Source of the DNA: an uncultured virus (IMG/VR IMGVR_UViG_3300021399_000011)
Lineage: Duplodnaviria; Heunggongvirae; Uroviricota; Caudoviricetes
Reading direction: 5' to 3' (one strand)
Virus record (IMG/VR): IMGVR_UViG_3300021399_000011
DNA length: 64,000 bases
Shown here piece after piece: positions 49,135 to 64,000 of the stretch (positions are counted from its first letter, which is position 1; each line of letters begins with the position of its first letter). The translations under genes were made by a program, and so were the position numbers. The notes under the pieces were generated by a model, which ran no database searches, was not told where the DNA came from, and saw only the letters and a list, made by a program, of their open reading frames with translations.

Positions 49135-49371
49135 AAGGCGCATTTCTTTAGTGCTTTCTTGTTCGGGCCTATGACGTGAAAGAAAGCGTGTGGGCCATGC
49201 CGCATCAAAACATGGAGCGCCGCCAACCGGGCGCTATAAATGCGTGGAGTAGGTTGGCAGACGTGCCATCCGTGAAGCCGGACGGATCAAAACCGATAGA
49301 GCCTCATAAGTACGACTGCGGCGTAAGGATGGGTAAGGGGCGTTTGTGAATCCCATCACCGCAGACAATAT

Positions 49372-49460
49372 GCAGACTTGACCGAGTTGGTAAGGTGCCG
49401 GATTGCTAATCCGAGGTCAGGGGAAACCCTGCGGGAGTTCAAGTCTCTCAGTCTGCGCCA
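49372..49460 (+). tRNA. tRNA-Ser(GCU)
   Basis: GCAGACT/AGTCTGC, loop TT-GCT-AA, long variable arm CAGGG-GAAA-CCCTG, G73 and CCA. Confidence 0.9.
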
Positions 49461-49559
49461 GAGAAGCGAGGGAATCTTTCTCGTTAGTATTGCGCACTAC
49501 GGCGGGACGGAGAAACAGATGTGCAATATACCTCGTAAGGCACTTCTCACCAACAATAT

Positions 49560-49652
49560 GCCGACATAGCTCAAAGGCAGAGCTTCGGTGCGTGAAGGGA
49601 TAGAGCACCTGAATACCCCTTGATGTTGGTTCGAGTCCAACTGTCGGTACAA
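49560..49652 (+). ncRNA. tRNA-like RNA with a pseudoknot in place of the anticodon arm
   Basis: Acceptor GCCGACA/TGTCGGT, D arm GCTC/GAGC and T arm GTTGG-TTCGAGT-CCAAC are canonical; the middle is GGTGC/GCACC with loop AAGGG complementary to downstream CCCTT. Confidence 0.7.
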
Positions 49653-49738
49653 GTGGCCGGGTCGCTCCCGGATGATGTGGTTGGTGGCGGAATCCCCACA
49701 GAGAAGAAGAAAATGCCCGAAAGGGAATCGTACAATAT

Positions 49739-49824
49739 GCGGTGTCCCTGATGGAGAACCGAGCGTTGCGGTAGCGCTGCAACGTAACGCAAGGGTGCAG
49801 GCTCACCACCTGCTCACCGCCCCA
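49739..49824 (+). ncRNA. tRNA-like RNA lacking canonical D/anticodon arms, ending in CCCA
   Basis: GCGGTG/CACCGC acceptor, GCAGG-7nt-CCTGC T-like arm, same CAATAT leader as neighbouring tRNAs. Confidence 0.5.
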
Positions 49825-50045
49825 AAGCGCAACGTCTGTAATGACAGGCAGGGCGTACCATTCGTTGCTCGTGTAGAGCAGCGAGCGCCTGGGAGGAAAG
49901 GCTGCGCTTATTTATGGAGCAGAGCCACCCCGCATGGGGAGGACACATCAGGCGACGGGGACATTTTTTCGAAGAGCCAAAGGGGTGCAAGACCCCGCTG
50001 CCCCTTTCTTATGCTATCTCTCTTCTTTCCATTTGGCCTCCAGGG

Positions 50046-50078
50046 GAAGGGCCATCGCTTCGGCGGTGGCCCTTCTTC
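50046..50078 (+). terminator. Terminator at the end of the tRNA/ncRNA cluster
   Basis: GAAGGGCCATCGC-TTCG-GCGGTGGCCCTTC followed by a pyrimidine tract. Confidence 0.75.
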
Positions 50079-50082
50079 CCTC

Positions 50083-50363
50083 TTTACTTTTATGATCGTA
50101 TGTGGTATAAGATAGGTGGGCATCCTTGGTTAGTGGTGTTTCCGAGGGTGTTTCACCCCTTTATAGGAAGGCGCTCGTCACCTATGTGGCGGGCGTCTTT
50201 CTGTTTTACCTTTACAATTTACCTTGTGCGTGGTATAATATGTACAGGTGGACATGGGTTCGTGGTGGTTCCCGTGGACATCTCCTTTCAAACGGTAGGA
50301 GTTTTGTTTTTTTCTCCTGCCGGGGAGGCGCTCGTCACTTCAGTGTCGGGCGTCTTTCTATTT
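50083..50363 (+). ncRNA. Two tandem promoter-hairpin-terminator sRNA units
   Basis: TTTACT-17-TATAAG and TTTACA-17-TATAAT promoters with extended TG; both units end in AGGCGCTCGTCAC-loop-GTG(G/T)CGGGCGTCTTTC. Confidence 0.6.
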
Positions 50364-50757
50364 ACCTCCGGCGTGTCGGCAGCCTACCGGCAGCGCATTG
50401 TCAGCTGCGCATCGCCCCAAAGTGCAATATTTGCACCAGTAATTACACTTTCACGATAACTACTGGAGAAAATATAGTTAATGTTATAGTTAATATCGCG
50501 GAAATTATAGTTAGTATCGTGGTAATATAATTTCGATTATTATACCCTCCCCTACTTTCAAAATCTTAATATGATTTTCAAGACCGCTTTTGGGCGGTCT
50601 TTTTTATTTTTTTAAAAAAAATTTCGCAGAAAGTGAATAACCATACCACCGATGCGCCTTAAAAACTTGACAATGTGCATACGATCTTAATGGTCAAGAG
50701 AAGACCTCATGATTTTGGAGGAAAATTGGGAAGGGAGAAGCGTATTAAGGAGGCCAT

Positions 50758-51513
50758 ATGCCAGAATCCATAGCATACAACATGGACTGCATGGAATGCA
50801 TGAAGGATATTCCTGATAAGTATTTTGATATTTCATGCGTCGATCCGCCTTACGGCGGTGGTGGTGCCGACAACGAGTATAAGGGCGCGGTGGTCGGGAG
50901 ATTTGGTGGGCGATTTGAGAAGTACCACCTCTCCACGGAGATAACGGCGGAGAGGCGCGGGCATGGGCACAATAAATATGGTGATGGCGAACTTTCCGCA
51001 AAGCATTGGGACTATGCGCCTCCGCCAGAATATTTCCAGGAACTCGCTCGCGTAAGCAAGAACCAGATCATCTGGGGCGGGAACTATTTTGCCCTTCCCC
51101 CTACCCGGTGCTTTCTGGTATGGCGCAAGCTGACGATCTCCGAGAACTTCACAATGGCGATGGCCGAGTATGCGTGGACGAGATTCAACGAGAATGCCAA
51201 GGTATTCGAGTTTGCCCCGCAAGGCAAGAAGGGCGATACACGATTCCATCCGACGCAGAAGCCGGTTGAGCTTTATGCGTGGATCTACCGGCTTTTTACC
51301 AAGCCAGGTATGAAGATACTCGACACGCACTTGGGAAGCGGCAGTAGCCGCATAGCAGCCTATGACGCCGGATTGGATTTCGTTGGTTGTGAGATAGACC
51401 CAGTGTATTTCAAACTACAAGAAGAACGATTTGCCAAGCATATACAACAGCGCAGCATATTCGATGCCGACTACGGCACAGCGGAACAGACGGGACTATG
51501 GGAGAATCTATGA
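50758..51513 (+). CDS. DNA amino-methyltransferase (N6-A/N4-C, beta class)
   Basis: DPPY, HPTQKP and LDTHLGSGSS motifs. Confidence 0.9.
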   Translation: MPESIAYNMDCMECMKDIPDKYFDISCVDPPYGGGGADNEYKGAVVGRFGGRFEKYHLSTEITAERRGHGHNKYGDGELSAKHWDYAPPPEYFQELARVSKNQIIWGGNYFALPPTRCFLVWRKLTISENFTMAMAEYAWTRFNENAKVFEFAPQGKKGDTRFHPTQKPVELYAWIYRLFTKPGMKILDTHLGSGSSRIAAYDAGLDFVGCEIDPVYFKLQEERFAKHIQQRSIFDADYGTAEQTGLWENL

Positions 51514-52351
51514 CAGAAAAATCTTGCTTAAATTGCGGAGCGCCCATATCCAAGGAAACCTGCGAGGGATTCCCAGAGGTGTGCGAATCGTGGAGGCCAA
51601 TAAAGCCTCAAAGTAATTATGACAAACTCCACAACATGACGCTTAATCAGTTGGTCGTATGGCTCCGCGCGTTCTATCCAGACGTATGCCCATTATATGA
51701 AAGCTGCCCTGGTGAGGATGATTGCGCGGTTTGTTGGCTTGACTGGTTCAAAAGCACGGAAGGAGAGGATATATGACAACTGAGCACGAAGAATTGTTAA
51801 AGCGGCTGACAGATGCGATGAAACAAAAGAGTGACCGCAAAAAGGCGGAGCTAACCGCAGAGCTGAAGATGCAAGACGAACTATGGAACGCCTATTACGA
51901 CGGCGTGTATGACGCTATCAAGGAGATTGAACAGAATGCGCTGTGGGCGACGGTAAAGGAAAAATCCAATGCTGAATAAGAATGGGTATGTCTCAAAGGA
52001 AACTGTTTGCGCAGAGATTGCCAGATTCAAAGGCTATCTTGATGAAGATATGATCCACCGGCTTCAAGTGGCAATCAAACGTCTGCCGGATGAAATAACC
52101 GAAGTTCTTCCCGCTGAATACGACAGCTTCAATAGAAAGATGATGGAGATGGAGGGTCGATAATGCAGTTTATCAAGCTACACACCAAAGCGGGGGACGA
52201 AGTATATATCAATACCGCCGCCATTGAAAGTATGCGATACGACACCGATGTTGCTGGAACCGTCCTAACAACGCTCGGGTGCGATGATGGGTGGTTCAAT
52301 ATCTGCGAAAACCCAGAAGAAATCCTTCAAATGATTCGGGGTGGCGAATGA
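51510..52351 (+). other. Four small coupled hypothetical genes (51510-51776, 51773-51979, 51969-52163, 52163-52351)
   Basis: Overlapping start/stop codons and RBSs; the last has a FlbD-like FIKLH....V.IN...IE pattern. Confidence 0.55.
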
Positions 52352-53109
52352 GACCGATTACCGTGTATACGCATAGAGAGCAATATGAACTCATCTGTGG
52401 CGACTGCCTTGAAGTGCTCCCACTTATTCCCACGGCATCAGTCGATATGATTCTGACTGATCTTCCCTATGGCTCTACAAAAAACGAGTGGGATCATGTT
52501 CTCGACCTGGACGCTCTATGGAAAGAGTATGAGCGGGTCATAAAGGATAACGGCGTGATCGCGTTGTGGGCGCAGTCTCCATTTGACAAGGTGCTGGCCT
52601 GTAGTAACTTGAAGCACTACCGCTATGAGTGGGTGATCGAGAAAACGTCGGCCACGGGCTTTCTAAACGCGCACAAGATGCCGATGAAAGCCCACGAGCA
52701 AATCCTTATCTTTTACAAGAAGCTGCCGACCTACAATCCCCAAATGGAGCACGGCCACGTTCGCAAGGTGTCTACCGCAGAGCACAAGCGGAACTCAAAG
52801 GTTACGACCAATTACGGCAAGCATGGGCTGACGAGCTACGACAGCACCGACAGATACCCGCGTGATGTTCTGCGGTTCAAGTGGGACAAACAGAAGTCAT
52901 CCCTATCCCCCACACAAAAGCCTGTTGCTGCCTGTGAGTATATGATCCGAACCTATACGAACACGGGTGATACCATCTTGGATTCCTGCATGGGCAGCGG
53001 TACGACTGGCGTAGCCGCTATGAACCTTGGCAGGAAGTTTATAGGAATTGAGATCGACCCGGATATGTACGAGATAGCATCACACAGAATTGGAGACAAC
53101 GAGCAATGA
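52348..53109 (+). CDS. Second DNA amino-methyltransferase (beta class)
   Basis: GDCLE, TDLPY, PTQKP and LDSCMGSGTTG motifs; ATGA-coupled start. Confidence 0.9.
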   Translation: MRPITVYTHREQYELICGDCLEVLPLIPTASVDMILTDLPYGSTKNEWDHVLDLDALWKEYERVIKDNGVIALWAQSPFDKVLACSNLKHYRYEWVIEKTSATGFLNAHKMPMKAHEQILIFYKKLPTYNPQMEHGHVRKVSTAEHKRNSKVTTNYGKHGLTSYDSTDRYPRDVLRFKWDKQKSSLSPTQKPVAACEYMIRTYTNTGDTILDSCMGSGTTGVAAMNLGRKFIGIEIDPDMYEIASHRIGDNEQ

Positions 53110-53816
53110 AGCCACCTATTTATGAACCAACTGGCAAAGCCAAGGAATACGGAGACCTTGCGCTGAACATCTACACCGGCTGTCCGCACCGATGCTACTA
53201 CTGCTTCGCGCCGAACGTCCTACATAAAGCCAAAGAGCAGTTTCACTCGTGCGTTGAACCGCGCCATGGTATCGCGGATGAAGTCAGAAAACAGCTCATG
53301 CGTGAGAATATCACCGACAAGCTGATCCACCTGTGCTTCACCTGCGATCCATACCCGACAGGCTATGATACCACAGACACGAGGGAAATAATCAAAGTCC
53401 TGAAACTGTATGGAAACCACGTTCAGATTCTCACCAAAGGCGATGGCCGTCGTGACTTCGATCTTCTGGATAGGAACGATTGGTTCGGCGTGACTGTTTC
53501 AAGCATGAGCTATCTGGCAGATGCGTCAGAGCCTGGGGCAATCGCACCGGAGTTCCGAATGTGGGAGATCGTGGAAGCATACCGGCGCGGCATCAAAACG
53601 TGGGTTTCGTTTGAGCCGGTCATTTGCCCTGACGATATTTTCACGGTCATCGACGTATATCACGACTACATCGACAAGGTGAAGATCGGTAAACTCAACT
53701 ACCATCCGTCAGACATCAACTGGAAAGAGTTCGGCTTACAGATCGCCGGTGTTTGTGAAGCCTACCACATGGACTACTACATCAAAGACAGTCTTCGGAA
53801 GGAGATGGAAAGATGA
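53106..53816 (+). CDS. Radical SAM protein (SplB/Rv2578c-like)
   Basis: NIYTGCPHRCYYC (CxxxCxxC), DPYP, ILTK, SFEP. Confidence 0.8.
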   Translation: MKPPIYEPTGKAKEYGDLALNIYTGCPHRCYYCFAPNVLHKAKEQFHSCVEPRHGIADEVRKQLMRENITDKLIHLCFTCDPYPTGYDTTDTREIIKVLKLYGNHVQILTKGDGRRDFDLLDRNDWFGVTVSSMSYLADASEPGAIAPEFRMWEIVEAYRRGIKTWVSFEPVICPDDIFTVIDVYHDYIDKVKIGKLNYHPSDINWKEFGLQIAGVCEAYHMDYYIKDSLRKEMER

Positions 53817-55614
53817 ATGATCTGAACGGTCGAATCGTGACGGACACAAGTACGGCGAATCCGCCCTCCTATAATACTTGGAAGGGGGCTGATAGGGAAA
53901 CTCTTATGAATGCTGTGCTGATGTTTGAAGAAGCAAACAAAAAGATCAATAAAGAAAACATTGCGCTCCGCGCTGACATGGCGAAACTCGAAGCAGAAAA
54001 CGCCGAGCTGCGCGAGAAGTGCATGACGCGGTTTGAAAGAATCCAGAAAGCAAGCCCAGAACAGATGGCAGCAACGATAGCGTTTATATACGACATCGGC
54101 TACACCGATGGACGAGAAGATGCGGATGATGACCACCACTGGCTTGAGTGGCTACAGGAGATAGGAACGATATGACAGAACAGGACAAAGCGATCCAAGA
54201 CCTCCGTATGAGGGTAAAAAAAATAGAGGGTCGGCTAAAAGCCGCCCTCTCTGATCTGGTGTATGTGCTCAATCAGCACAGTCTATGTGAAATATGTAAG
54301 TACCGGGACGCCGACTGCAAGCCGGACAGTGGGAGCTGCGTTCCGCAATGGAGGGGAATGTAATGCGGTTCAAACTGGATGGATGTGACATTTCTTTTTA
54401 CGCAGAAGCCCCGGAGGACATCACCCTCAAACAGCTTCTGAAGCAGTGCGATAGGATCAGACCCGATTGGTGCGCCTGTGGTATTCGGTCTTGTAACGAC
54501 AAGGAAATATTCCCCACAGAAATCTATATCGACTACGATGATGTCCGTAAAGCGAATGATGATGTTGCTTGCAGCATCCGGCCAAAGGAGGATTGTAATG
54601 GGGTATAGACAGTACCTTTATTCTGCGGACACCTGGCTTGTAGATGAAATCCGAAAGTGCAAGACCAACGAAGATTTCATCAAGACCATGCAGAAGTTCC
54701 GCAATGACATCGTGGAGTATGATTCGTTCGATGACCGCTATTATGTCATGCTTCACAATATCGGTGATGTACTGTTCGAGTTTGGCAAATACTATGAGAA
54801 CTCGGACGAGATGTACAAGCACGGAGACAGTCTGTTCACATCCGAAGAGCTGAACAGGTATTACAGCGACTACGGTGCAATCGTTCTTGATCCCGAAGGA
54901 ATCTTGTGCGCGATTGAGTGGCAGAGAAACCATGTCATTGAGATGTATGAAGACCTGCTCCGGAAGAAGTCTTCACGGGAATGGGATTCAAGATCTCAAC
55001 TTGATAGGCTCATCGAAAACGCGAAAGATTATCTGAGGTGGTGGCAATATGGCCCAGCCGACCTCAATTTAGAGCATGAAAATTTGGCCCATTCTTGGTT
55101 GTATGAACACACGTTTTTCGATTTGGTGAGGATCTATAAAACCTTCGATTGGGACAACGAGTCCATGCTTTTCATGGGGTGGTGAAGTATGAGGGCTGAT
55201 CCTCTCGATCTGCGTTTCCAACGCAAGTATATATCCGCTGCGGAGATGGAGTCTTTTCTTGATGCCATACCTACCGAAACAGAGGAAGGTCGAATGATTC
55301 TCGGGATCGCAAGAGCCTATCTTCATTCGTACAAGTCAATCGACCACGAGACAGACATAATTGTTCTACACCGCTGCCCCATCTGCAAACAGTTCCCCTC
55401 GTTTGGCTATGCCAAAGTGGTAGACTCTACCACCACCAACCCATCGATCGAAATCTCAGTGCGATGCAAATGCCCAGTCGGAGTGCGGATACGTTATATA
55501 TTCCCCTCTTGGGCGATGCAGAGAGTAGACAGGGATATTTCCGAAGCGGAACACGGCGCAGTGAATCACTGGAACGATTTGGTAGAGGAAAGAAAAAAGG
55601 AGGTAGAAAAATGA
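53813..55614 (+). other. Run of hypothetical genes (53813-54175, 54172-54363, 54363-54608, 54598-55185, 55189-55614)
   Basis: Coupled ORFs with RBSs; no recognisable family. Confidence 0.55.
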
Positions 55615-56048
55615 GCAAGGTCTATTTAGCGCACCCAATCACCGGGCTGAAGTCCGAGGATGTCTTCAACTACTACGACGCCATCAGCGACGAACTTGGA
55701 AAACGCCATACCATTTTGTCTCCGATGACCGGGAAAGATTATCTTCGTAACGAAACTGTCATGCAGAAGTCCTATGAGGAATACCCAATCAGCCGAGGTC
55801 ACGCCATCTTTGAGCGCGATCAGTGGATGGTGTCAACCTCGGACATCGTTTTGTGCGATTTCACTGGAGCCAAAACGGTATCTATCGGCTGTTGCATGGA
55901 AATGGCGTGGGCTGCGAAACTCGGAAAGCATTCGGTTGTTGTTATGGATGATGGGAACCCACACAATCATCAGTTTATAAGAGAGGCTGCCGACATCGTA
56001 TTTTCAACGATGGAAGAGGCCATGGCCTATATCAAACAGTTGCCGTGA
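55611..56048 (+). CDS. Nucleoside 2-deoxyribosyltransferase/nucleotide hydrolase-like protein
   Basis: KVYLAHPI, IFERD...V..SDIV, S.G...EMAWA..LGK motifs. Confidence 0.75.
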   Translation: MSKVYLAHPITGLKSEDVFNYYDAISDELGKRHTILSPMTGKDYLRNETVMQKSYEEYPISRGHAIFERDQWMVSTSDIVLCDFTGAKTVSIGCCMEMAWAAKLGKHSVVVMDDGNPHNHQFIREAADIVFSTMEEAMAYIKQLP

Positions 56049-56491
56049 GTAAACTTGAATTAAAACCGTGTGACTTCCAAACCGCTGCTGATTTTGTTGG
56101 TCTGTACCACCGGCACAACAAGCCGCCTGTTGGTCATAAGTTTTCAATCGCTTGTTATGACAATGACCGTCTCTGCGGTGTGTGTATGGTTGGCAGACCG
56201 ATAGGACGATATCTTGATGATGGACTGACGCTTGAAGTCAACCGCTGCTGCACAGACGGAACAAAGAATGCCTGCACTATGTTGTACGGCGCAGCGCAGA
56301 GGGCAGCAAAAGCCCTTGGGTACAAACGAATTGTTACCTACACGCTTGAAAGCGAAAACGGATCAAGCCTCCGGGCATCTAACTGGATCTGCGATGGCCA
56401 GGCCGGCGGAACACACTGGACCGGGCAGCGATACGAGCAAACAGAAATCGTTCTTGGCGAAATGAAAGTACGTTGGAGGAAAGAATTATGA
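56045..56491 (+). CDS. XF1762-family/Mom-like GNAT acetyltransferase
   Basis: HRH..P..GHKFSI, GV..VGRP..R.LDDG.TLEV.R.CTDG..NAC..LY, VTYTL.SE.G.SLRASNW. Confidence 0.65.
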   Translation: MSKLELKPCDFQTAADFVGLYHRHNKPPVGHKFSIACYDNDRLCGVCMVGRPIGRYLDDGLTLEVNRCCTDGTKNACTMLYGAAQRAAKALGYKRIVTYTLESENGSSLRASNWICDGQAGGTHWTGQRYEQTEIVLGEMKVRWRKEL

Positions 56492-57604
56492 AACCGTGCT
56501 ACGGTCTGTGCGACCGCTGCGTATGGCAGACCAATGGGGGGTGCATCCATTGGACAAGAAACTGAACCCACGCAAAATCCCACGATCCCAAGCCGATGTA
56601 GAAAAAGCCTACGGCCTTGGCTTCGAGGATGGTATGCGTGACCTCATGGATGTGATGGTCTACACGCTCGGTACGGATATGGAAGAGTCGGACGCGTGGC
56701 TCGACTTCTTCCATTCCCGGTTTATGAAAAATCTTGAGTGCCATGTTCACGGAGAACTGACAACCCATGATATGCGCACTACAACTTATGCAGAAAAAGG
56801 ATGGGAGGTTGAAGTGAAGTGAATTGCGGAGATTGCAAATACTCCCACGACACTGGCTTGGGCCTATTGTGTTGGGGCGAGAAAGAAGCACCGCCGGTCG
56901 ATCCAGACCACTGGTGCAAAGGATGGAAACCAAAGAGAGGATGCGCCGCATGGACATCACCGCGCAAGTCTCTGCCGGAGCCGTTCGTTAGTGTACAGGT
57001 ATACATCCCCTCGCAAGCGCCATTCCCCACCGTGCATGAGGGATATGTTCTTGCGGATGACAACGGAATCCCATACGGATGGTTCATCCCGGCGCTACGC
57101 GATAGATGCGACCTATACGATGCTGTCGAAGCCTGGACGCCGTTTGTCGAACCTGAAACGGTAAAACTATGAGCAAGCAGTGTCCTTCCTGTGAGTTTTT
57201 CTGCTCCACTCCGCCTAACGATGGCAAGCGCAATGTCACGTTGCAGCCTGTGTGTCTCTGTGACCAGTGCGATCAATACACACCATACATACCACGGCGA
57301 GCAAAAGACGAGACTTTGGATACTATTTTAAGCGCATTGGACAAGATGTGCGATATACAAATAGCATCTGGAATAAATCTCGGAATGATTATTGATAGAC
57401 ATAGCCAGGATACATGCTTCTCTTGCGGTTCACCTCTTCGCATCATGATTCGAGGCAAAAAGAAATACTGCGCCGTGTGCGGATGTTATTTGCCTGAAAT
57501 CGTCTATGGTGAACAATTCCGCGACTTCACGAAATTGATAAGCCCGATGGAAATACAACGGCCAAAACCAATGCCTACAGTATATTCACATTAGAGGAGG
57601 ATAT

Positions 57605-58138
57605 ATGGAAGTATCACTTTTGAAATGTCCGTCCGATACGGACTGGCTTCTCGTAAAGCGAGCTGCGCTCGAAACCGTCGGGCGATCCGTGAAGACACTT
57701 CCCGGCATTGAGTGGAAGAAGTCGATTCTGGAAGCCCGCCACAGCCCCATCAGGCTGCTCCATTTCGTTTTTGAACTCAGAGATATACCGTACTGGGTCA
57801 GCGGCCATCTCTGCCGTCATGTCCACTCAACGCCGTTCGTGAAGTCCCAGAGGAATGACCGGCAGTCAGATTATGACCGCAACGCTGCGCGGCAGGATGC
57901 CCCAGTCAATATGATGTGGGAGATGAACGCCGAGGAACTCTGCGTGATCGCAAATAAGCGCCTATGCAACATGGCCGCAAAGGAAACCAGAGAAGTCGTG
58001 GCGAGAATGTGCGAGCTGGTAATCGTCAACTGCCCAGAGTTCAAAGATGTTCTTGTACCTATGTGCGAGTATAACGGCGTCTGCCATGAAATGAACGGTG
58101 GATGCGGAAAGATGAAAAGGAGAACCGATATTGTCTGA
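57605..58138 (+). CDS. thyX: FAD-dependent thymidylate synthase (ThyX-like, short form)
   Basis: ARHSPI, VS.HL.RH....FVKSQR, NAEEL......RLC..A..E.R motifs. Confidence 0.7.
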   Translation: MEVSLLKCPSDTDWLLVKRAALETVGRSVKTLPGIEWKKSILEARHSPIRLLHFVFELRDIPYWVSGHLCRHVHSTPFVKSQRNDRQSDYDRNAARQDAPVNMMWEMNAEELCVIANKRLCNMAAKETREVVARMCELVIVNCPEFKDVLVPMCEYNGVCHEMNGGCGKMKRRTDIV

Positions 58139-58692
58139 CGAACGTATTACGAAAGAAGACGAACTCAACGGCATCGAACTCTGGAACATGGCGCTGTTCA
58201 AGCCGCACTGGTGGAAGCCCTGGCTGACATTCTTCTACATCGACTGCCCGCAATATCTATCATTCAACCTCTTCGACAAGTACGACATACAGCCATTTTT
58301 CTTCCGGTTCAGCGAGCATAAAGACGGAAAGTATATTGGCGTGAAGTGCTGCGTCAAGAAAAGCCGTATAGATGATTTCCTCGTCTGTATGCACGAGATG
58401 CAGCGCAACATGACGATCTGCGGATACAGCGACTACGAAGAGTTCTGCCGGAAGTGGCAGGAAGATCTCAAAGAGGAGGACGACGCCGATGAATGACGAG
58501 CAGCTTAAATGCGCAGCCATGGGCATTATCACATACCACTACCTTCTGAATATGGATGAGCCGCCGGATGTGGAGATAGGCGATATGCTCACGATTGATG
58601 CCGAGTTGGACGATGGCGTACTTGAAGCGACGATGGAACTGCTATCCACCATAAGCACGGAAGAGTTGGAACTATACGAAGAAGAATTATAA
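58131..58692 (+). other. Two hypothetical genes (58131-58496, 58489-58692)
   Basis: RBSs and overlaps; followed by a hairpin at about 58707-58741. Confidence 0.5.
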
Positions 58693-58912
58693 TCAGCAAA
58701 ATACACAAGGGTGGCACAGCAAAATCGCTGTACCGCCCTTATTTACTATGTTTTTTGGCTCTTTTTTTGGCACACATAGCGGCTTTTGGCACATTTTTGG
58801 CACATCATAATTGACGCTTTTTGACGATTTCTGACGGTCGCTTTAGTGTAATATGACGAACGCAAAAATAAAGAAAAAACCCTGGAACCATTGAAATTCC
58901 AAGGTTTTTTGT

Positions 58913-59004: not shown

Positions 59005-60261
59005 CTACTCCGATTTTTTTGGCGCAGTATTTGGCGCAGCGTTTTCTTTGTTCAAAATGCCGGTGGCGCGGATCGCTTCCGGCTTTCCAGCATCCACATA
59101 GATATTTGCCGTGGTAGAAATATCAGAGTGACCCATGAGGTATTTCGTGACTTCAATAGGCACTTCCGCCCTTTGCATATCCGTTCCGAAGGTGTGGCGA
59201 AGACAGTATGTGCATATCTCTGGTGACAGCTTGTGGCCGTTGCGCGGTTTCTTCGGATCGGCGGGGTCTGGGTATAACGGTGTACCGTCAGCCTTTAAAT
59301 CAGCTGGGTCGTAGATGTGACCTCGACTGTCATGTTCTGCTCCCATCTCCAAGTCCCATTGGCGGGAGAAAGACTTCCAGTATGTCTTGAACGCCTGACG
59401 GGTGAGCATAGACTTGCCATCGGACTTGGTGAACAGAAACTCTGCTTTATCCCTCTCCCCTATCATGGCGGCAAGGTCGGCGAGTATGGCCGGATCGTCC
59501 TTTGTGTTGATGGCAGTAAAGCGGACGCCGGATGCCGTCTTTGGCGTACTTATCGTCTTTGTTCCCGTCTCGACCGCCTGCGTGACATGGACGATTTTTT
59601 CTTCAAGGTCAACATCTCCCACCTTGATAGCCGCCAGCTCGTTAGGTCGGACGCCGGTGGCCGCGAGGAATCGGAAGAGAAGCCCATGCTTGTTTTTATC
59701 TGCCGCTTTGAAGAAAAAATTTCTTTCTTCGGCAGTTATCGACCGCCTTTTCCCTTTTTTGGCAGCGGGAAGCGACAAACCTACAGATGGGTCGAATGGT
59801 ATAATACGGTCAATGTAAGCCTGCGAGAACATCTTCTTTATCGTGATGTTCAGCTTTGCCACCTGAGAGAAAGACATATCCTTATGCTCGTTTAGGATCT
59901 GCTGTAGGTGGGTCGGCTTCACATCGCGCATCCGCATATTCCCAATGGCCGGTACGATATAGTTGCGAGACAACTGCTCATAGGATTTATACGTTGCCTC
60001 GTTCATTGTCCCCCGAAGCTTCGGCTCCCCCGGCTTGCGCACCCTCGGCTTGTTATATGTATCCAGCCAAGTGTTCGCCCAGGTACTCACCTTCATGGCC
60101 GTGGATATGCCAAGGTCTCCGTTCTTTACGGCGTCGATCTTCCGGTTGAGCTTGCGGTAGGCTTCCGCCTTTGTCTTCCCTCTCGCCGTATAGCGGACAC
60201 CCTCATAGGTCTCGCTGACGCGCTCATAATCGTATTCTTTTGTCGGCTTACCCTTCGGCAA
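59005..60261 (-). CDS. int: Phage integrase (tyrosine recombinase)
   Basis: Arm-binding N-terminus, TGVRPNE, PKT, YCLRHTF, MGHSDISTTANIY; adjacent to attP. Confidence 0.92.
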   Translation of the reverse strand: MPKGKPTKEYDYERVSETYEGVRYTARGKTKAEAYRKLNRKIDAVKNGDLGISTAMKVSTWANTWLDTYNKPRVRKPGEPKLRGTMNEATYKSYEQLSRNYIVPAIGNMRMRDVKPTHLQQILNEHKDMSFSQVAKLNITIKKMFSQAYIDRIIPFDPSVGLSLPAAKKGKRRSITAEERNFFFKAADKNKHGLLFRFLAATGVRPNELAAIKVGDVDLEEKIVHVTQAVETGTKTISTPKTASGVRFTAINTKDDPAILADLAAMIGERDKAEFLFTKSDGKSMLTRQAFKTYWKSFSRQWDLEMGAEHDSRGHIYDPADLKADGTPLYPDPADPKKPRNGHKLSPEICTYCLRHTFGTDMQRAEVPIEVTKYLMGHSDISTTANIYVDAGKPEAIRATGILNKENAAPNTAPKKSE

Positions 60262-60315
60262 TAGCGCACCTCACATTTCGTGTATTTTGACGAATGGAAT
60301 TTACGTTCTGTGTAC

Positions 60316-60344
60316 TTGACAAATTTAGCTTTATAGGCTAATAT
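60316..60344 (+). promoter_or_regulatory. Sigma70 promoter overlapped by TAGCTT..A(A/G)GCTA palindromes
   Basis: TTGACA-17-TAATAT; palindromes at about 60326-60340 and 60356-60372. Confidence 0.5.
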
Positions 60345-60712
60345 CAATAGCGTGGTTAGCTTGTTAAGCTAATTCTCGGTGGTTGACCTTTTTAACGGAC
60401 GCTCATGGTGTTACCATATACTCACCAGAAGATAAAGGGGGAACGATGGATTGACCAAAGAAGAAGCCAAGGCTTTTGTCGATAGTCTCACTGACGAGGA
60501 AGTAATCTTCGTGAAACAGTTCCTCGATAAACTTGATAAAGAAAAGGAGTCTAAAAATGGACAAGACCACGTTTGATATTGAGCTGACCAACTTTGAGGA
60601 AGCATCGGCTATAGCCCGACAGCTACAGGTTGAAATCGACAAAGCGGTGGAAGCCGCGCAACGGCTCTCCGATTTGTTGCTTCACCTTGAGGTCAAGATA
60701 AACGAAAACCCA

Positions 60713-60913
60713 TCAGCCAGGATCACGGGAGAAGGGTAAGTCAACAATCGCGCCGCAGAAAGGACAAGTCACCCTTCTATCGTATCGCTCTATGTCAGTC
60801 CCACATTTGGGGCAAACGCCATAATACAGCGTTGCTGTCATTTTTGAGAGCGCCTTATCTTTCTCCTTCTTTAGTGCCTTTTGGTACTCTCTTTCAACGT
60901 CTGACTTACTCAT
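60713..60913 (-). CDS. Small Zn-ribbon protein co-transcribed with the repressor
   Basis: CPKC...CPFC; overlaps the repressor stop. Confidence 0.6.
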   Translation of the reverse strand: MSKSDVEREYQKALKKEKDKALSKMTATLYYGVCPKCGTDIERYDRRVTCPFCGAIVDLPFSRDPG

Positions 60914-61262
60914 TCTTGCTATCCCCTTTCTGCATATAAGCAGCCAGTTCGCCCATGAGCCGAATCACTTCGGCCTGCGACAGATTCGCTACCCTCGGCA
61001 TGATCTCATCACGAATAACGTCCACATTGCCCGTCACTTCGGTGGTGGGCTTTTTTGTTTCTGTATCGCTAAGTAATTCTTCAACACTTACATTGAAGTA
61101 TTCGGCAAATCGCATGAGCACGTTATCTCTTGGAACAGACCCATTTTTCTTCCATCCGGTTACTGTTCCAGAACTCTTTACGCCACCGATGTTCCTTGCG
61201 ACTACATTTGGAGCTTTTCCAACTTCATCGCATAGCCGCACGAAATTGTTATAAAACGACAA
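60906..61262 (-). CDS. CI-like XRE/HTH repressor
   Basis: GAGGTG RBS and TTG start; VARNIG...GTVTGWKK.GS.P......FAEYFNVSVEELL; divergent from cro. Confidence 0.8.
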   Translation of the reverse strand: MSFYNNFVRLCDEVGKAPNVVARNIGGVKSSGTVTGWKKNGSVPRDNVLMRFAEYFNVSVEELLSDTETKKPTTEVTGNVDVIRDEIMPRVANLSQAEVIRLMGELAAYMQKGDSKNE

Positions 61263-61270
61263 ATTCACCA

Positions 61271-61480
61271 CCTCATTTTTATCAGTTTTGCCAAATGTGA
61301 GAAAAATGAGAAAAACCACTTTACAAAATGAGAAAAATGAGATAAGATAGCCTTGCACTTGCGGATAAGGGTGCAAAAACACGACCCCTCAGAGAGTGGC
61401 TTTTCAAAATATTTGTTGGCACTCATATTTTATCAGCACTCTCCGGGGATGTCAATAAGAAAACTCATATTTGTGAGAAA
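61271..61480. promoter_or_regulatory. Lysis-lysogeny switch region with repeated TGAGAAAAATGAG/CTCAT(A/T)TTT operator-like boxes
   Basis: AAATGAG/CTCAT motifs recur several times between the divergent cI and cro genes. Confidence 0.55.
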
Positions 61481-61495
61481 GGAGAGTGATAACCT

Positions 61496-61687
61496 TTGAC
61501 GCTCAAAGAGCGAAGAAAGGCTGCGGGACTCACGCAGCAGGAACTTGGTACCATGATTGGTGTCGATCAGTCGGCCATCCACTTATGGGAAGCCGGAAAG
61601 ACAAAGCCCCGAAAGGCGCATCTGGCGGAACTCGCCAAACTGTATAAGTGCTCCGAAAAGGAGCTGACCCAGGATTTAGACCAGTGA
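61496..61687 (+). CDS. cro: Cro-like HTH protein
   Basis: LKERRKAAGLTQQELG..IGVDQSAI..WE.GK..P; AAGGAG RBS. Confidence 0.85.
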   Translation: MTLKERRKAAGLTQQELGTMIGVDQSAIHLWEAGKTKPRKAHLAELAKLYKCSEKELTQDLDQ

Positions 61688-61733
61688 GCCGACACTGGTG
61701 AATGCAAACAAGATGAAGAAAGGAACATAAAAC

Positions 61734-62318
61734 ATGAAGTATCTGGAAGTAACTTGGAACGGCACCTCCCCCCTCATTGAGAACTCTCCCAAATGTGTCA
61801 ACCCCCTTCACCCCATCGCCAAAGAGAAGAGCGCACTGACTTCCAAGCGGAAGAAAACCGAAGAGGATCTGGAGAAAATCTCCGACCTCGAATGGGAAGC
61901 CGGTGTCTACTGGGACGATAACATCGGCCTGGTCATCCCCAACGAGTGCATCGCAGCGACAATCCTCAATGGGGCAAAGATGAACAAGAACGGCTCTGCG
62001 ATCCAGAAGTACGTTCAGGTGGTTGACAGCCTTGCACCGCTCGACATCGGAGAGGTTCAGAACTACGAGAAGATGAAGGTCGATCCCCGATTCCGCGATG
62101 TCCGTACCGTCTGCGTCATGCGTTCGCGTGTCATTCGCACCCGCCCCCGGTTCAACACTTGGCGTGTCCGCTTCAAGCTGATGTATGACGAGTCGAAAAT
62201 TGATGTCGATGACATCGCCCTCGCTGTTGAGAACGCTGGTAACTATGTCGGTCTGTGCGAGATGCGGAAGATGGGCTACGGTCGTTTCGCCGCTTCCATC
62301 TCTGAAGTCGAAGCCTAA
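61734..62318 (+). CDS. Stand-alone RAMP/Cas7-like RNA-binding protein
   Basis: Beta1 plus GTSPL; IP...I...I..GA helix; RTRPRF..W...F.L; C-terminal Gly-rich loop GNYVGLCEMRKMGYGRF; AAGGA RBS; no other cas genes in the window. Confidence 0.75.
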   Translation: MKYLEVTWNGTSPLIENSPKCVNPLHPIAKEKSALTSKRKKTEEDLEKISDLEWEAGVYWDDNIGLVIPNECIAATILNGAKMNKNGSAIQKYVQVVDSLAPLDIGEVQNYEKMKVDPRFRDVRTVCVMRSRVIRTRPRFNTWRVRFKLMYDESKIDVDDIALAVENAGNYVGLCEMRKMGYGRFAASISEVEA

Positions 62319-62329
62319 CTGATTTTTAC

Positions 62330-62359
62330 GGGGAGCCGTGTGCTCCGGCTCCCCCTTTT
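62330..62359 (+). terminator. Hairpin between the RAMP gene and the array (terminator or processing element)
   Basis: GGGGAGCCG-TGTGCTC-CGGCTCCCC-CTTTT. Confidence 0.65.
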
Positions 62360-62368
62360 GGAATATAT

Positions 62369-62635
62369 GTTTCGGCTTGGTATCGTAGGGTTCTGTTCGG
62401 TACGGCTTCTAAGGTTTGATGTGGTAGGGCATGGTAGTGTTCGCTACGGATTATAAGTTCCGTTACGCAAGGGTATGGCTTGGTTGGCTTTGGTTAGGTA
62501 TCTACGGATTGGTTAGGCGCGGATAGGTAAGGCTTGTTATGGTCTGCTGCGGATTATTCGGTGGAGCATGGTTAGGTCAGGTCTGGTCTGGTGGGGATTC
62601 TTCGGTGCGGACAGATAAATCTTTGGTGCGGATAA
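62369..62635 (+). repeat. Non-coding array of 5-nt GGY-NN units in about five blocks; candidate guide RNA(s)
   Basis: For example 62511-62555 GGT-TA GGC-GC GGA-TA GGT-AA GGC-TT GTT-AT GGT-CT GCT-GC GGA-TT; blocks end in GG(A/C)TT; no ORF in the track covers it. Confidence 0.85.
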
Positions 62636-62656
62636 ATCTCAAATAGGAGGCAAAAG

Positions 62657-63106
62657 ATGAACAGGAAGGATAAGGTGGACAAAATCGTGGAAACATTCGC
62701 CTGTATGGACTACGGCGAATCCATGACCCACGGACAGATTGCCGAACTTGTCGGTGTGAAGAAGACAGACAGCGAGTACCGCTATCTGATCCATCAGTCG
62801 CAGAAGCATCTGCTTGACCACGGGAAAATGGTCGAGAGTATTCGCGGCGTAGGTTACAGGGTGGTCAACCCCGATGACTATACGGCGGTATCTTCCCGGT
62901 ACATGACCACGGGAGTGCGGTGCATCAACAAGAGCGCCAATGTACTGGCCCACGCACCAGTAGCCAGTATGACGCCGGAGGGATTGCAGGCTTACAACCA
63001 CGTCCGTGATCGGATGGCAATTCTACAGGCGGCTGTGACCGGGGCAAAGGTTGAAATCAATATGCTCGCCCAGAAGCGGGAACACCCTCTGGCGGTGAAG
63101 CGATGA
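62657..63106 (+). CDS. Winged-helix-like protein, candidate accessory of the RAMP-array locus
   Basis: AGGAGG RBS; YGESMTHGQIAELVG ... ESIRGVGYRVV wing motif. Confidence 0.6.
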   Translation: MNRKDKVDKIVETFACMDYGESMTHGQIAELVGVKKTDSEYRYLIHQSQKHLLDHGKMVESIRGVGYRVVNPDDYTAVSSRYMTTGVRCINKSANVLAHAPVASMTPEGLQAYNHVRDRMAILQAAVTGAKVEINMLAQKREHPLAVKR

Positions 63107-63333
63107 TACCCAGCGCACCGTGTATGAAAGACGGCATTGACTGCGACAATCGCAACGTCGGATGCCAGTCGAAGTGTGATGCGTACAAGGCATTCCGCGC
63201 CGCCATCGACAAGGCCAATGCCGAGCGGCACAAGGAGGATGTGAGTAAGCAGTACGCATCAGACATGATCTGGCGAGACCGCCAGAAACTGAAGTACACC
63301 GCCGATGGGAGACGGGTATTAGGCCAGAGGTGA
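63103..63333 (+). CDS. Small Cys-rich phage protein
   Basis: PC.....C..R.VGC.SKC.AY pattern; ATGA coupling. Confidence 0.6.
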   Translation: MIPSAPCMKDGIDCDNRNVGCQSKCDAYKAFRAAIDKANAERHKEDVSKQYASDMIWRDRQKLKYTADGRRVLGQR

Positions 63334-63339
63334 TTCCCC

Positions 63340-63585
63340 ATGCCGAGAGTGAATCTCAACCAGAACAAGCTGACTACGGATCGTAGGCAACTGCTCTACT
63401 CCCGCTACGGCGGATTCATGACGATTCAAAACGTCATGGCAGAACTGGGCGTGAGCCGCAACACCGCAAAGAAGTTTGCGGCCACGCTCCCCGCCTACTC
63501 CCTCACCGGGAAGCCTGTATATGACGTTAATGATGTGGCGACAAAAATCGAAGCCACACGCACTCCACCGAAGGAGGCTCAATGA
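63340..63585 (+). CDS. HTH/excisionase-like DNA-binding protein
   Basis: FMT..NV.AELGVSRNTA ... Y.V.DVA pattern; GAGGTG RBS. Confidence 0.55.
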   Translation: MPRVNLNQNKLTTDRRQLLYSRYGGFMTIQNVMAELGVSRNTAKKFAATLPAYSLTGKPVYDVNDVATKIEATRTPPKEAQ

Positions 63586-63800
63586 ACAACACAATCCCCT
63601 ACGCAGTCCGTCCGTGGGACGGCCCATTCGCCAAATCTGAAACGCCGGAGAAACGCCACAAACGGTACATCCCGGCCCAGATGCCACCGCAGAGGGAAAT
63701 AGATATGTGCTTGAGCTGTCCGCTTCCTGATTGTGATGGCTCGGAACGGAAGTGCCGGAGCTACCGCGCACACTACGTTGCGAAGAGGGTACACCAATGA
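63582..63800 (+). CDS. Small Cys-rich hypothetical protein
   Basis: GGAGG RBS; AVRPW ... IDMCLSCP..DC. Confidence 0.6.
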   Translation: MNNTIPYAVRPWDGPFAKSETPEKRHKRYIPAQMPPQREIDMCLSCPLPDCDGSERKCRSYRAHYVAKRVHQ

Positions 63801-64000
63801 CAACTCAGGAGATGGTTCGTAGCGCAACACGCGCCGTAAAGCCGTGGGCGAGCTTGGATGCTACGGTTTACGATCTGCGTACCGTCAGCAAGTCCGACGT
63901 GTTCACCGACCAGGCAACCATTGAAATCTGTCTGAACTGTCCTCGCACCGAGTGCTGTAACTGTCTCGACGGGTGGAAATCCATATCGGCCATACGGCCA
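63797..64000 (+). CDS. Paralogue of the preceding gene, 3'-truncated by the window edge
   Basis: ATGA-coupled; MTTQEMVRSATRAVKPWASLD...IEICLNCPRTECCNC. Confidence 0.55.
   Translation, partial: MTTQEMVRSATRAVKPWASLDATVYDLRTVSKSDVFTDQATIEICLNCPRTECCNCLDGWKSISAIRP

What the first reader, a model, noticed from the sequence alone, without database searches (positions are those of the whole stretch)
62369..62599. The array is segmented into ~45-nt blocks whose dinucleotides may spell gapped targets
Seen: block 1 62369-62408 (NN = TC TT AT AG TC TC AC TT); block 2 62413-62452 (TT GT AG AT AG TC AC TT); block 3 62456-62510 (with 1-nt register slips); block 4 62511-62555 (TA GC TA AA TT AT CT GC TT); block 5 62560-62599 (GG AT TA CA CT CT GG TT). 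Each ends in a shared (G/C)T-RS-GG(A/C)TT tail, usually followed by a 3-4 nt register break; two short GGTGCGGA..ATAAATCT remnants follow. Speculative, post hoc reading: reverse-complement the NNs and allow one skipped base between them. Block 5 then gives AGnAGnTGnTAnATnCC, which fits a Shine-Dalgarno plus start such as AGGAGGTGATAnATGCC. Block 1 gives GTn GAn GAn CTn ATn AAn GAn (V-D/E-D/E-L-I-K-E), resembling the C-terminal helix of Cro/XRE proteins with wobble positions skipped. I saw no exact self-match in this window, but did not search exhaustively.
Basis: partly seen in the sequence, partly recalled or inferred. Interest (0 to 1): 0.85.

Follow-up and report, generated by a model that had tools for sequence, protein, structure and literature searches.

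The report
Phage VIPR guide-RNA array
The repeat array is the guide-RNA array of a prophage VIPR system, a CRISPR-like silencing machine first described in 2026 preprints, and one of its guides spells a conserved motif of the DNA-binding replication gene of rival phages.

Summary
Window 62369-62640 is a G/T-rich track of GGY-NN pentamers, cut into units of 44, 44, 54, 49 and 44 nt, each closed by a GG(A/C)TT+4 nt motif.

It is a known kind of element. The gene just upstream (61734-62318) folds like Cas7/Csm3. It is 34% identical (E 3e-40) to the Vipr protein of phage SUSP1. SUSP1 is the reference for VIPR systems (bioRxiv 10.64898/2026.04.26.720920), where NN dinucleotides pair with DNA while one base is skipped.

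- Block 4 gives GCnAGnATnAAnTTnTAnGCnTA. Of 35 exact matches in viral contigs, 22 fall in wobble phase on the motif ASINFYAY of Gp2.5-like phage ssDNA-binding proteins.
- A relative's variant guide predicted RASINLYAFN, and 44 of 44 metagenome matches lie in that gene.

This is a new member of a known kind.

The parts
59005..60261 (-). Tyrosine integrase; marks the prophage end
   Evidence: PF00589 E 8.6e-19, phrog_1 E 3e-49
60906..61382 (-). cI-like repressor candidate (HTH)
   Evidence: phrog_8 E 4e-11; weak HTH_3/HTH_26 Pfam matches below cut-off
61496..61687 (+). Cro-like HTH_3 regulator; first gene of the rightward early operon
   Evidence: PF01381 E 3.5e-15
61734..62318 (+). vipr: 194-aa minimal RAMP (Cas7-like) protein
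   Evidence: phrog_4652 E 3e-50. AF2 pLDDT 88.3. Foldseek top hits Csm3 5yjd_A E 3.2e-5, also type VII Cas7 and type IV Csf2. 34% identity, E 3e-40, full length to the SUSP1 protein that sits between GGY/NN tracts.
62330..62359 (+). Hairpin (9-bp G+C stem, 62330-62338 / 62346-62354) followed by CTTTT. Possible weak terminator or RNA end between vipr and the array.
   Evidence: Read from the sequence. Also present in L001, absent in L002 and L003. Not listed by the consensus terminator scan.
62360..62368 (+). Leading tail-like motif GGAATATAT that opens the array
   Evidence: Matches the tail regex
62369..62412 (+). vrRNA unit U1 (44 nt). NN = TC TT AT AG TC TC AC, then tail GGCTT CTAA. Target unknown.
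   Evidence: No match above shuffles.
62413..62456 (+). vrRNA unit U2 (44 nt). NN = TT GT AG AT AG TC AC, then tail GGATT ATAA. Shared with L001. Target unresolved.
   Evidence: 93% identical to L001 3703. 7 exact 1-skip hits in 401 genomes, 6 spelling VDLILTK in wobble phase but in different gene families.
62457..62510 (+). vrRNA unit U3 (54 nt, internal 4- and 6-nt steps). Tail GGATT without the 4-nt spacer. Target unknown.
   Evidence: The 9-NN pattern gave 6 viral hits, none in wobble phase.
62511..62559 (+). vrRNA unit U4 (49 nt). NN = TA GC TA AA TT AT CT GC, then tail GGATT ATTC. Guide against the ASINFYAY motif of Gp2.5-like phage SSB genes.
   Evidence: The same 8 NN recur in L001 and L137 on a diverged scaffold.
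62560..62603 (+). vrRNA unit U5 (44 nt). NN = GG AT TA CA CT CT GG, then tail GGATT CTTC. Target unknown.
   Evidence: No match above shuffles.
62604..62640 (+). Two truncated units (GGTGC GGA.. ATAAATCT) that close the array
   Evidence: The last copy is conserved in L001.
62645..62650 (+). Shine-Dalgarno AGGAGG of the downstream gene
   Evidence: Read from the sequence
62657..63106 (+). vap candidate: 149-aa winged-helix protein with two long C-terminal helices
   Evidence: phrog_5926 E 1.8e-10. AF2 pLDDT 88.6. Only weak Foldseek hits, to wHTH regulators. 22% identity, E 3e-5, colinear with the second gene of the SUSP1 locus, sharing GVGYRVV.P. Follows the array in 10 related contigs.

Best explanation
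Window 61734-63106 is a VIPR (Viral Interference Programmable Repeat) locus of a temperate phage. It holds vipr (a Cas7-like RAMP protein), a 'staggered' array of five vrRNA units plus two remnants, and a winged-helix accessory gene.

By homology with the SUSP1 system, the mechanism would run as follows (inferred, not shown here):
- The array is transcribed and cut into units.
- One Vipr protomer binds each pentamer, burying GGY and presenting NN.
- The filament pairs the NN dinucleotides with double-stranded DNA, skipping every third target base.
- Binding represses transcription of the target.

What is shown here for unit U4: its eight NN, read by that rule, spell the first two bases of the codons for A-S-I-N-F-Y-A-Y. 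This is a conserved motif of the Gp2.5-like ssDNA-binding gene of other phages, a gene family that VIPR-bearing relatives do not carry. The likely function is to silence a replication gene of competing phages in the same host. Targets of the other four units are not known.
For: Protein:
- AF2 model pLDDT 88.3.
- 46 Foldseek PDB hits at E <= 0.001, led by Csm3, type VII Cas7 and type IV Csf2.
- Full-length homology to the SUSP1 protein (E 8e-34; BLASTP 34% identity, E 3e-40). That gene is flanked by one upstream and three downstream GGY/NN tracts, as the preprint describes.
- Of the SUSP1 contact residues named in preprint 720927, R137 and R178 are invariant in 30 of 30 aligned homologs. E176 stands for D177 and M177 for W178.

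Array:
- 11 of 11 related viral contigs with a full-length gene carry a GGY/NN array directly downstream.
- A blind scan for (GGTNN)x7 returned 121 loci, and 12 of them encode distant homologs (23-53% identity) of the protein. In the nine whose positions I compared, the gene lies on the array's strand, upstream of an array.
- Of 231 pentamers, 212 have Y at position 3, and all 16 NN occur.
- Unit lengths follow 5n+4. This fits the preprint's 'staggered arrays' with 1-nt overlap (legend of fig. S18).
- The RNA has no structure beyond shuffles (z -0.76).

Target of U4:
- 35 exact 1-skip matches in viral contigs. 22 form one homologous cluster with 14 distinct matched strings, diverged to 64% nucleotide identity. 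All 22 are in wobble phase on ASINFYAY.
- PF10991 E 3.8e-76 and phrog_112 on 4 of 4 tested.
- The same 8 NN recur in L001 (0 of 16 NN differences against 4 of 24 scaffold differences) and in L137.
- The L005/L006 unit differs at three NN. By the rule it predicts RASINLYAFN with Ser as TCn. 44 of 44 exact metagenome matches lie in SSB homologs at that motif, with 18 distinct strings.

Self versus non-self:
- No match in the window above shuffles at skip 0-3.
- PF10991 is in 0 of 10 VIPR-bearing records (two at least 90% complete), against 3 of 3 target phages as positive control.
- Vipr is in 0 of 5 target-phage records.
Against: - Only one of five units has a convincing target.
- Controls are few: one shuffled order, one scan each at skip 0 and skip 2, and no collection scan at skip 3. 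The shuffled control also hit small family clusters (largest 7 loci; two further singleton loci spell a closely similar peptide, KALYAIYFG and NALYAIYLA against KALYAMYFG), so family clustering alone is not proof.
- No exact U4 target was found in 401 genomes of the family of the one Oscillibacter MAG that carries a relative, so the target phage's host is unknown.
- Window units hold 7-10 pentamers, fewer than the 9-16 reported. The tail is a 9-nt motif rather than a structured tail. The GGY scaffold is degenerate in places.
- Residue 17 is Asn, where 27 of 30 homologs and SUSP1 have the G1-contacting His.
- A hairpin with a short T run separates vipr from the array.
- Expression and processing are not shown. 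RNA-library contigs of the source sample cover vipr and vap but not the array. One contig of another RNA library spans the array in a 90-95% relative, and such libraries can hold DNA.
Confidence: 0.9

Rival explanations
1. The array is a decaying or inactive VIPR relic. The units are short and degenerate, and the protein carries a substitution at a guanine-contacting residue, so the locus no longer silences anything.
For: Units of 7-10 pentamers. Scaffold triplets such as CGT, TGT, GAT, AGC and GCT. U3 has internal 4- and 6-nt steps. Two truncated units sit at the end. N17 stands in place of the near-invariant H17. Four of five units have no target found.
Against: vipr and vap are intact ORFs. 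Unit lengths still obey 5n+4. The U4 NN are perfectly conserved across three arrays while the scaffold drifts, which argues for selection on the guide. N17 is shared by a sublineage (window, P0001, P0012, L001). Relatives with H17 have equally degenerate scaffolds.
Confidence: 0.07
2. The track is a cis-regulatory RNA site. An oligomeric protein reads GGU triplets at 5-nt spacing, as TRAP reads GAG/UAG, to control translation of the gene that starts 17 nt after the array.
For: In the relatives I read, the array ends a few to about 50 nt before the start of the downstream gene. The spacing equals TRAP's optimum (recalled, not from a call).
Against: This does not explain why NN are conserved in U4 while GGY drifts, or why the NN strings of two guide variants spell two variants of one foreign protein motif. 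In SUSP1 the arrays lie elsewhere relative to the genes. Published experiments show trans DNA targeting.
Confidence: 0.02
3. The array is a DNA-level element: a run of two-tetrad G-quadruplexes, an R-loop-prone G-rich non-template strand, or replication-origin iterons of 44 bp.
For: GG occurs every 5 nt. Composition is G 37% and T 34% on the coding strand. There is a 44-nt higher-order period.
Against: Position 3 is a pyrimidine in 212 of 231 pentamers, which quadruplex loops do not require. Blocks hold varying numbers of GG runs, not multiples of four. There are no inverted repeats or an AT-rich unwinding region. The link to a RAMP gene holds across distant phages. Guide-target matches exist.
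Confidence: 0.01

Closest known systems
Type II VIPR system of Escherichia phage SUSP1 (Vipr + Vap1 + vrRNAs). bioRxiv 10.64898/2026.04.26.720920 (Results, Discussion and four Methods sections read), 10.64898/2026.04.26.720927 (abstract and one Results section read), 10.64898/2026.10.15.759431 (abstract and found passages only).
   Same: Homologous Vipr (34% identity, E 3e-40) and a homologous second gene (E 3e-5). GGY/NN pentamer guides next to the gene. The 1-nt skip reading finds a coding target in wobble phase. The target lies in a competing mobile element and not in the phage itself. Prophage or phage context.
   Different: - Gene order is vipr - array - vap, instead of vrRNA - vipr - vap - vrRNAs.
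- Units abut one another with a 9-nt GGATTATAA-type motif, instead of about 100-nt vrRNAs with a structured tail.
- Units hold 7-10 pentamers (up to about 15 in relatives), against 9-16.
- Scaffold triplets are often degenerate.
- G-loop residues are E-M-R instead of D-W-R, and N17 replaces H17.
- The decoded target is a Gp2.5-like SSB gene, rather than a satellite recombinase or prophage regulators.
'Staggered' vrRNA arrays of VIPR systems (fig. S18 of preprint 720920; legend only seen)
   Same: Units follow one another without spacers. Their lengths are 5n+4, as expected if whole numbers of pentamers overlap by 1 nt.
   Different: I could not see the figure or learn which VIPR type it belongs to. 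The supplement held (one PDF) carries no locus tables.
Cas7 backbone of class 1 CRISPR effectors (Csm3 of type III-A, e.g. PDB 5yjd and 6ifn)
   Same: RRM fold with G-rich loop and thumb hairpin. The protein polymerises along a guide RNA with a fixed nucleotide period.
   Different: - Period 5 with three buried bases, rather than period 6 with one flipped base.
- No CRISPR repeats (none reported by Tandem Repeats Finder in 60000-64000).
- No other cas gene among the nine ORFs of 59005-63800 that I scanned.
- About 12% sequence identity to Csm3.

Membership tests
VIPR system | Small (about 20 kDa) stand-alone RAMP protein with RRM core, G-rich loop and thumb | tested here: met
   194 aa. AF2 pLDDT 88.3 with a beta-hairpin at 121-140 (Arg-rich, the thumb) and a low-confidence G-Y-G-R-F loop at 178-184. 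Foldseek top hits are Csm3/Cas7.
VIPR system | Sequence homology to an experimentally studied Vipr | tested here: met
   SUSP1 record KT454805.2, 28495-29061: E 8.1e-34. BLASTP 34% identity over 190 aa, E 3e-40.
VIPR system | GGY-contacting residues of SUSP1 Vipr (H17, R138, D177, W178, R179; preprint 720927) | tested here: inconclusive
   By the BLASTP alignment and alignment A1: R137 and R178 are kept in 30 of 30. D is replaced by E176 and W by M177, each in 29 of 30. H17 is N in the window and in 2 other rows of 30 (also in L001, which is not in A1).
VIPR system | Tandem YNNGG (GGY/NN) repeats, at least four units, beside vipr | tested here: met
   Five units of 7-10 pentamers at 62369-62603. 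Lag-5 z 5.4.
VIPR system | GGY conserved, NN hypervariable among relatives | tested here: met
   Position 3 is Y in 212 of 231 pentamers and all 16 NN occur. U1, U3 and U5 have no counterpart above 68% identity in 12 related arrays.
VIPR system | Invariable 3' tail after the repeat tract | tested here: inconclusive
   A conserved 9-nt GG(A/C)TT+4 motif ends each unit. It is short, and the array RNA shows no structure beyond shuffles. The preprint describes a structured tail for the SUSP1 clade only.
VIPR system | NN spell a natural target with one skipped base, the skip on the codon wobble position | tested here: met
   Met for U4: 22 of 35 viral matches fall on ASINFYAY of PF10991 genes in wobble phase. 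Met for the L005/L006 variant: 44 of 44. Not met, or not resolvable, for U1, U2, U3 and U5.
VIPR system | No self-targeting | tested here: met
   Best window matches equal the shuffled controls at skip 0-3. No PF10991 gene in the window or in 10 VIPR-bearing records (positive control). The prophage continues beyond the window end, so the test is incomplete.
VIPR system | Accessory vap gene with a predicted DNA-interacting fold | tested here: met
   The 149-aa protein has a winged helix plus two long helices. Foldseek gives only weak hits to wHTH regulators, best E 2.7e-3. E 3e-5 to the SUSP1 second gene.
VIPR system | vrRNAs expressed, processed and bound by Vipr | not testable with these tools
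   Only assembled contigs of RNA libraries were available. vipr and vap are covered in the source sample's RNA library, the array is not. One contig of a relative spans the array.
VIPR system | Viral or proviral context | tested here: met
   Integrase, cI-like and Cro-like genes lie directly upstream. Relatives lie in IMG/VR contigs.
CRISPR-Cas (type III/IV/VII) | CRISPR repeat-spacer array and further cas genes (Cas10/Cas5/Cas6 etc.) | tested here: not met
   No direct repeats of CRISPR type in 60000-64000. The nine neighbouring ORFs carry no cas family. The rest of the window was not scanned for cas genes.

The most novel reading that the evidence does not exclude
This rumen/gut prophage clade may be a compact VIPR architecture that the preprints mention only in a figure legend. 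Its units abut one another, are 44-79 nt long (5n+4), and end in a 9-nt tail.

Its guide family also appears to record an arms race with rival phages over one SSB motif. Sister phages carry guides for ASINFYAY(N) with Ser as AGn, for RASINLYAFN with Ser as TCn, and for RATINLYAF. Switching the serine codon family is the kind of change that defeats a wobble-skipping guide, and each variant would be answered by a matching guide.
Probability: 0.45. Interest if true: 0.5.

Novelty: new member of a known kind. Interest (0 to 1): 0.35.

Why it matters
For the scan, the main result is that a striking and real repeat is already explained. VIPR systems were described in three 2026 preprints, and this scan's notebook already holds 137 notes that mention them.

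What this locus adds is modest but concrete:
- An independent, purely computational confirmation of the 1-nt skip rule in a distant clade. The clade comes from animal and human gut metagenomes, with 34% identity to the model protein.
- A successful prediction made before the search: 44 of 44 matches in the predicted gene.
- A natural target class not named in the parts of the preprints I read, namely a Gp2.5-like ssDNA-binding replication gene.
- A compact array architecture with very short units.
- Guide variants that follow codon-family and residue variants of one target motif.

Tried and rejected
- My first hypotheses were a TRAP-like RNA track, a G-quadruplex array, origin iterons, and a C-rich rut site on the minus strand. 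I dropped them once the neighbour gene folded as Cas7 and the preprint was found.
- Rfam found nothing relevant: one sub-threshold snoRNA hit at 61973-62042.
- blastn of 61734-63106 against cultured phages gave no match.
- No whole genome is held for the window, so a host-genome target search was impossible.
- The genome-contig scan gave only two loci.
- U3 read as 9 NN gave 6 viral hits, none in wobble phase, which I take as chance.
- U1 and U2 against five SSB-bearing phage records gave only 2-mismatch hits, similar to the reversed-pattern control.
- Seven-pentamer windows (111) from 13 related arrays, tested against 17 SSB loci, matched only for the U4 family.
- U4 has no exact match in 401 genomes of the family of G016, and none within one mismatch in the two MAGs that carry relatives.
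- U2 in the same 401 genomes gave 7 exact hits, against 1 for the reversed control. Six spell VDLILTK in phase, but they lie in two large serine recombinases, two PF05183-like proteins, one MmeI-type enzyme and one doubtful frame. There is no convergence, so this is a lead only.
- RNA-library contigs: no contig of run X4 covers 62144-62647, and nothing was laid from X21. Neither shows absence.
- The supplement of the preprint's PMC copy holds methods and legends only, so the VIPR type of this clade could not be looked up.
- The link between N17 and scaffold degeneracy was considered and dropped, because H17 relatives are equally degenerate.
Full report
**1. The observation**

Printed in fives, blocks 1, 2, 4 and 5 give xGY-NN pentamers with exactly the NN lists given. 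Each block ends in GG(A/C)TT followed by 4 nt, and two GGTGCGGA..ATAAATCT remnants follow.

Composition is G 85, T 80, A 35, C 32 of 232 bases. Same-base frequency at lag 5 is 0.449, against 0.292 +/- 0.029 in 2000 shuffles (z 5.4). At lag 44 it is 0.553 (z 8.25). The ten windows with the highest lag-5 excess in the whole 64 kb all start at 62301-62411. Tandem Repeats Finder sees only two short rows inside the array, and a whole-region Fourier power at period 5 is unremarkable. Both follow from the register shifting by one base between blocks.

Splitting at the tail motif gives units of 44, 44, 54, 49 and 44 nt (the 103-nt interval there is my split into 54 + 49). In 12 related arrays, 28 of 37 tail-to-tail intervals are 4 mod 5. 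The other nine are 3, 2 or 1 mod 5, as expected for two, three or four units whose tail my regex missed (inference).

**2. Context**

The array sits in the early region of a prophage:
- integrase, 59005-60261 (-)
- a cI-like gene, 60906-61382 (-)
- a Cro-like HTH gene, 61496-61687 (+)
- a 194-aa ORF, 61734-62318 (+)
- a G+C hairpin with a short T run, 62330-62359
- the array
- a 149-aa ORF, 62657-63106 (+), behind an AGGAGG

The 194-aa protein has no Pfam family. It matches phrog_4652 end to end (E 3e-50, function unknown) and has 1103 homologs at E <= 0.001 among 1198 candidates. Rfam finds nothing relevant.

**3. The array travels with the gene**

Scans of viral contigs with the protein and its alignment gave 12 contigs. 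Eleven hold a full-length gene, and all eleven have a G/T-rich GGY-NN array directly downstream. The twelfth (L015) holds only residues 1-83 and has no array. In ten of the contigs a homolog of the 149-aa gene follows the array. L008 is the cleanest: five units of 49 or 54 nt, made of GGYNN pentamers, then GGATT, then ATNN.

The reverse test also works. In 12 of them tblastn finds distant homologs of the 194-aa protein (23-53% identity). In the nine whose positions I compared (L020, L041, L042, L045, L050, L072, L079, L086, L087), the gene lies on the array's strand and upstream of an array. I read the arrays themselves in five of these.

Over 231 pentamers from nine arrays, position 3 is C or T in 212, and all 16 dinucleotides occur at positions 4-5.

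**4. What the protein is**

The AlphaFold model (pLDDT 88.3) matches Cas7-family RAMP proteins. There are 46 PDB chains at E <= 0.001, led by Csm3 (5yjd_A, E 3.2e-5, TM 0.54), and including type VII Cas7 and type IV Csf2.

A literature search then found the explanation. VIPR systems are described in bioRxiv 10.64898/2026.04.26.720920. I read its Results, Discussion and Methods sections 18, 20, 26 and 27. The system works as follows:
- A minimal RAMP protein, Vipr, binds vrRNAs made of 9-16 GGY/NN pentamers plus a 3' tail.
- The NN pair with double-stranded DNA while one target base is skipped.
- The skip usually falls on the codon wobble position.
- Natural targets are competing phages, satellites and prophage regulators.
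- A vap gene accompanies vipr.
- 'Staggered arrays' with 1-nt overlapping vrRNAs exist (legend of fig. S18).

A companion preprint (720927; abstract and one section read) shows one protomer per pentamer in a helical filament, and names the GGY-contacting residues. A third preprint (759431; abstract and passages only) shows that SUSP1 VIPR silences a satellite's recombinase.

**5. Membership**

- The window protein is 34% identical over 190 residues to a protein of phage phiSUSP1 (E 8e-34; E 3e-40).
- That gene has one GGY/NN tract upstream and three downstream of a second gene. This is the layout the preprint gives for the SUSP1 VIPR locus.
- The window's 149-aa protein aligns colinearly with that second gene (22% identity, E 3e-5, shared GVGYRVV.P).
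- It folds as a winged helix plus two long helices (pLDDT 88.6). Foldseek gives only weak hits to wHTH regulators, none at E <= 0.001.
- Of the contact residues, R137 and R178 are invariant in 30 of 30 homologs. E176 and M177 stand for Asp and Trp. Residue 17 is Asn in the window, P0001, P0012 and L001, where 27 of 30 homologs and SUSP1 have His.
- 130 cultured-phage records hold homologs, all below 60% identity.

The unit lengths of 5n+4 are what whole numbers of pentamers overlapping by one base would give. This fits the 'staggered' legend, but I could not see the figure. The one supplement held lists no loci, so the VIPR type is not assigned.

**6.

*Self-targeting.* In the window itself, with the array masked, no unit matches better than shuffled NN orders at skips 0-3. 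This agrees with the preprint's finding of no self-targets.

*Unit U4.* For U4 (62511-62559, NN = TA GC TA AA TT AT CT GC), a scan of viral contigs with the 1-skip pattern gave 35 exact matches:
- 22 form one homologous cluster, diverged to 64% nucleotide identity, with 14 distinct matched strings.
- In all 22 the reverse complement lies in frame on A-S-I-N-F-Y-A-Y, within open frames of 187-234 codons, with the skipped bases at codon position 3.
- Four of four tested are PF10991 (E down to 3.8e-76) and phrog_112, the Gp2.5-like ssDNA-binding and annealing protein.
- In 11 of the 22, the next codon is Asn. That also matches the TT of the preceding GGATT, which in the window lies in register.
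- The remaining 13 hits are one AT-rich family with a single identical string out of wobble phase (8 loci) and 5 singletons.

*Controls.*
- A shuffled NN order at skip 1 gave 27 loci. The largest cluster was 7, and every cluster had a single matched string. Two further singletons spell a closely similar peptide.
- Skip 2 gave 14 loci: 12 singletons and one pair.
- Skip 3 was tested only locally.

These controls are few, and the shuffled one shows that small family clusters arise by chance.

**7. Independent support**

The same eight NN recur in L001 (95% Vipr identity), with 0 of 16 NN differences against 4 of 24 scaffold differences. They also recur in L137 (82% identity), on scaffold triplets as aberrant as GTC, GCA and GAA. 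So the NN are held while the scaffold drifts.

L005 and L006 carry a unit with NN = TT AA GC TA AG TT AT GA GC CG. L013 has the same unit with GT in place of GA. By the rule these decode to R-A-S-I-N-L-Y-A-(F/L)-(N/K), with Ser as TCn, and to R-A-T-I-N-L-Y-A-... That is the same motif with variant residues and the other serine codon family.

I wrote this prediction down before the scan of metagenome contigs with the 20 specified bases. The scan gave 44 exact matches. All 44 lie in open frames BLASTP-similar to the SSB of L141 (52-80% identity), at the homologous motif, with 18 distinct strings.

The VIPR-bearing records do not carry this gene family: PF10991 is in 0 of 10 records, two of them at least 90% complete, against 3 of 3 target phages as positive control. 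Five target-phage records do not carry Vipr.

**8. What remains open**

- U1, U2, U3 and U5 have no convincing target.
- U2 has 7 exact hits in 401 genomes, against 1 for the reversed control. Six spell VDLILTK in phase, two of them in large serine recombinases, but the hits are spread over several families. This is a lead and nothing more.
- U4's pattern has no exact match in 401 genomes of the family of the Oscillibacter MAG that carries a relative, so the host of the target phages is unknown.
- Expression is only hinted at. RNA-library contigs of the source sample cover vipr (61779-62143) and 62648-63367, but not the array. One 1601-nt contig from another RNA library spans 61405-63018 in a 90-95% relative. 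Such libraries can contain DNA, and contigs cannot show RNA ends.
- The array RNA has no structure beyond shuffles (z -0.76), as expected for a protein-coated guide.

**9. Verdict**

The locus is a new member of a known kind. It has a compact staggered array, short units, and a decoded natural target in a rival phage's ssDNA-binding gene.

Noticed in passing
window 61734-62318, residue 17: The Vipr of the window, L001, P0001 and P0012 has Asn where 27 of 30 aligned homologs and SUSP1 have the His that contacts the first G of GGY, according to preprint 720927. This is a lineage-specific change of unknown effect.
   Followed up: partly
L002 4350-4640: One relative carries a second GGY/NN array after the vap homolog, so array position and number vary within the clade.
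   Followed up: partly
L072 2300-2770 (-), L042 2380-2700 (+): In distant VIPR-like loci, the (GGTNN)n tracts alternate with a repeated hairpin-forming element of about 45 nt, like repeats and spacers of a CRISPR array. In L045 the blocks are separated only by GGCA.
   Followed up: no
L005 / L006 / L013 versus window 62511-62559: Sister arrays hold guide variants for ASINFYAY (Ser AGn), ASINLYAF (Ser TCn) and ATINLYAF. This may be a record of target escape and guide replacement.
   Followed up: partly
window 48000-58700: A block of phage-like small genes on the + strand lies just before the integrase. It includes a ThyX-like ORF at 57605-58138 (read from the translation only) and several Cys-rich ORFs. 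It may belong to a neighbouring element.
   Followed up: no
window 63103-64000: A run of small Cys-rich ORFs follows vap: 76, 72 and at least 83 aa, with CxxC-type pairs, plus an 81-aa HTH ORF. Their function is unknown.
   Followed up: no
L390, L396: Two bacterial ORFs of about 855 aa with a weak PF05183 (RNA-dependent RNA polymerase) match carry the VDLILTK string hit by the U2 pattern.
   Followed up: no
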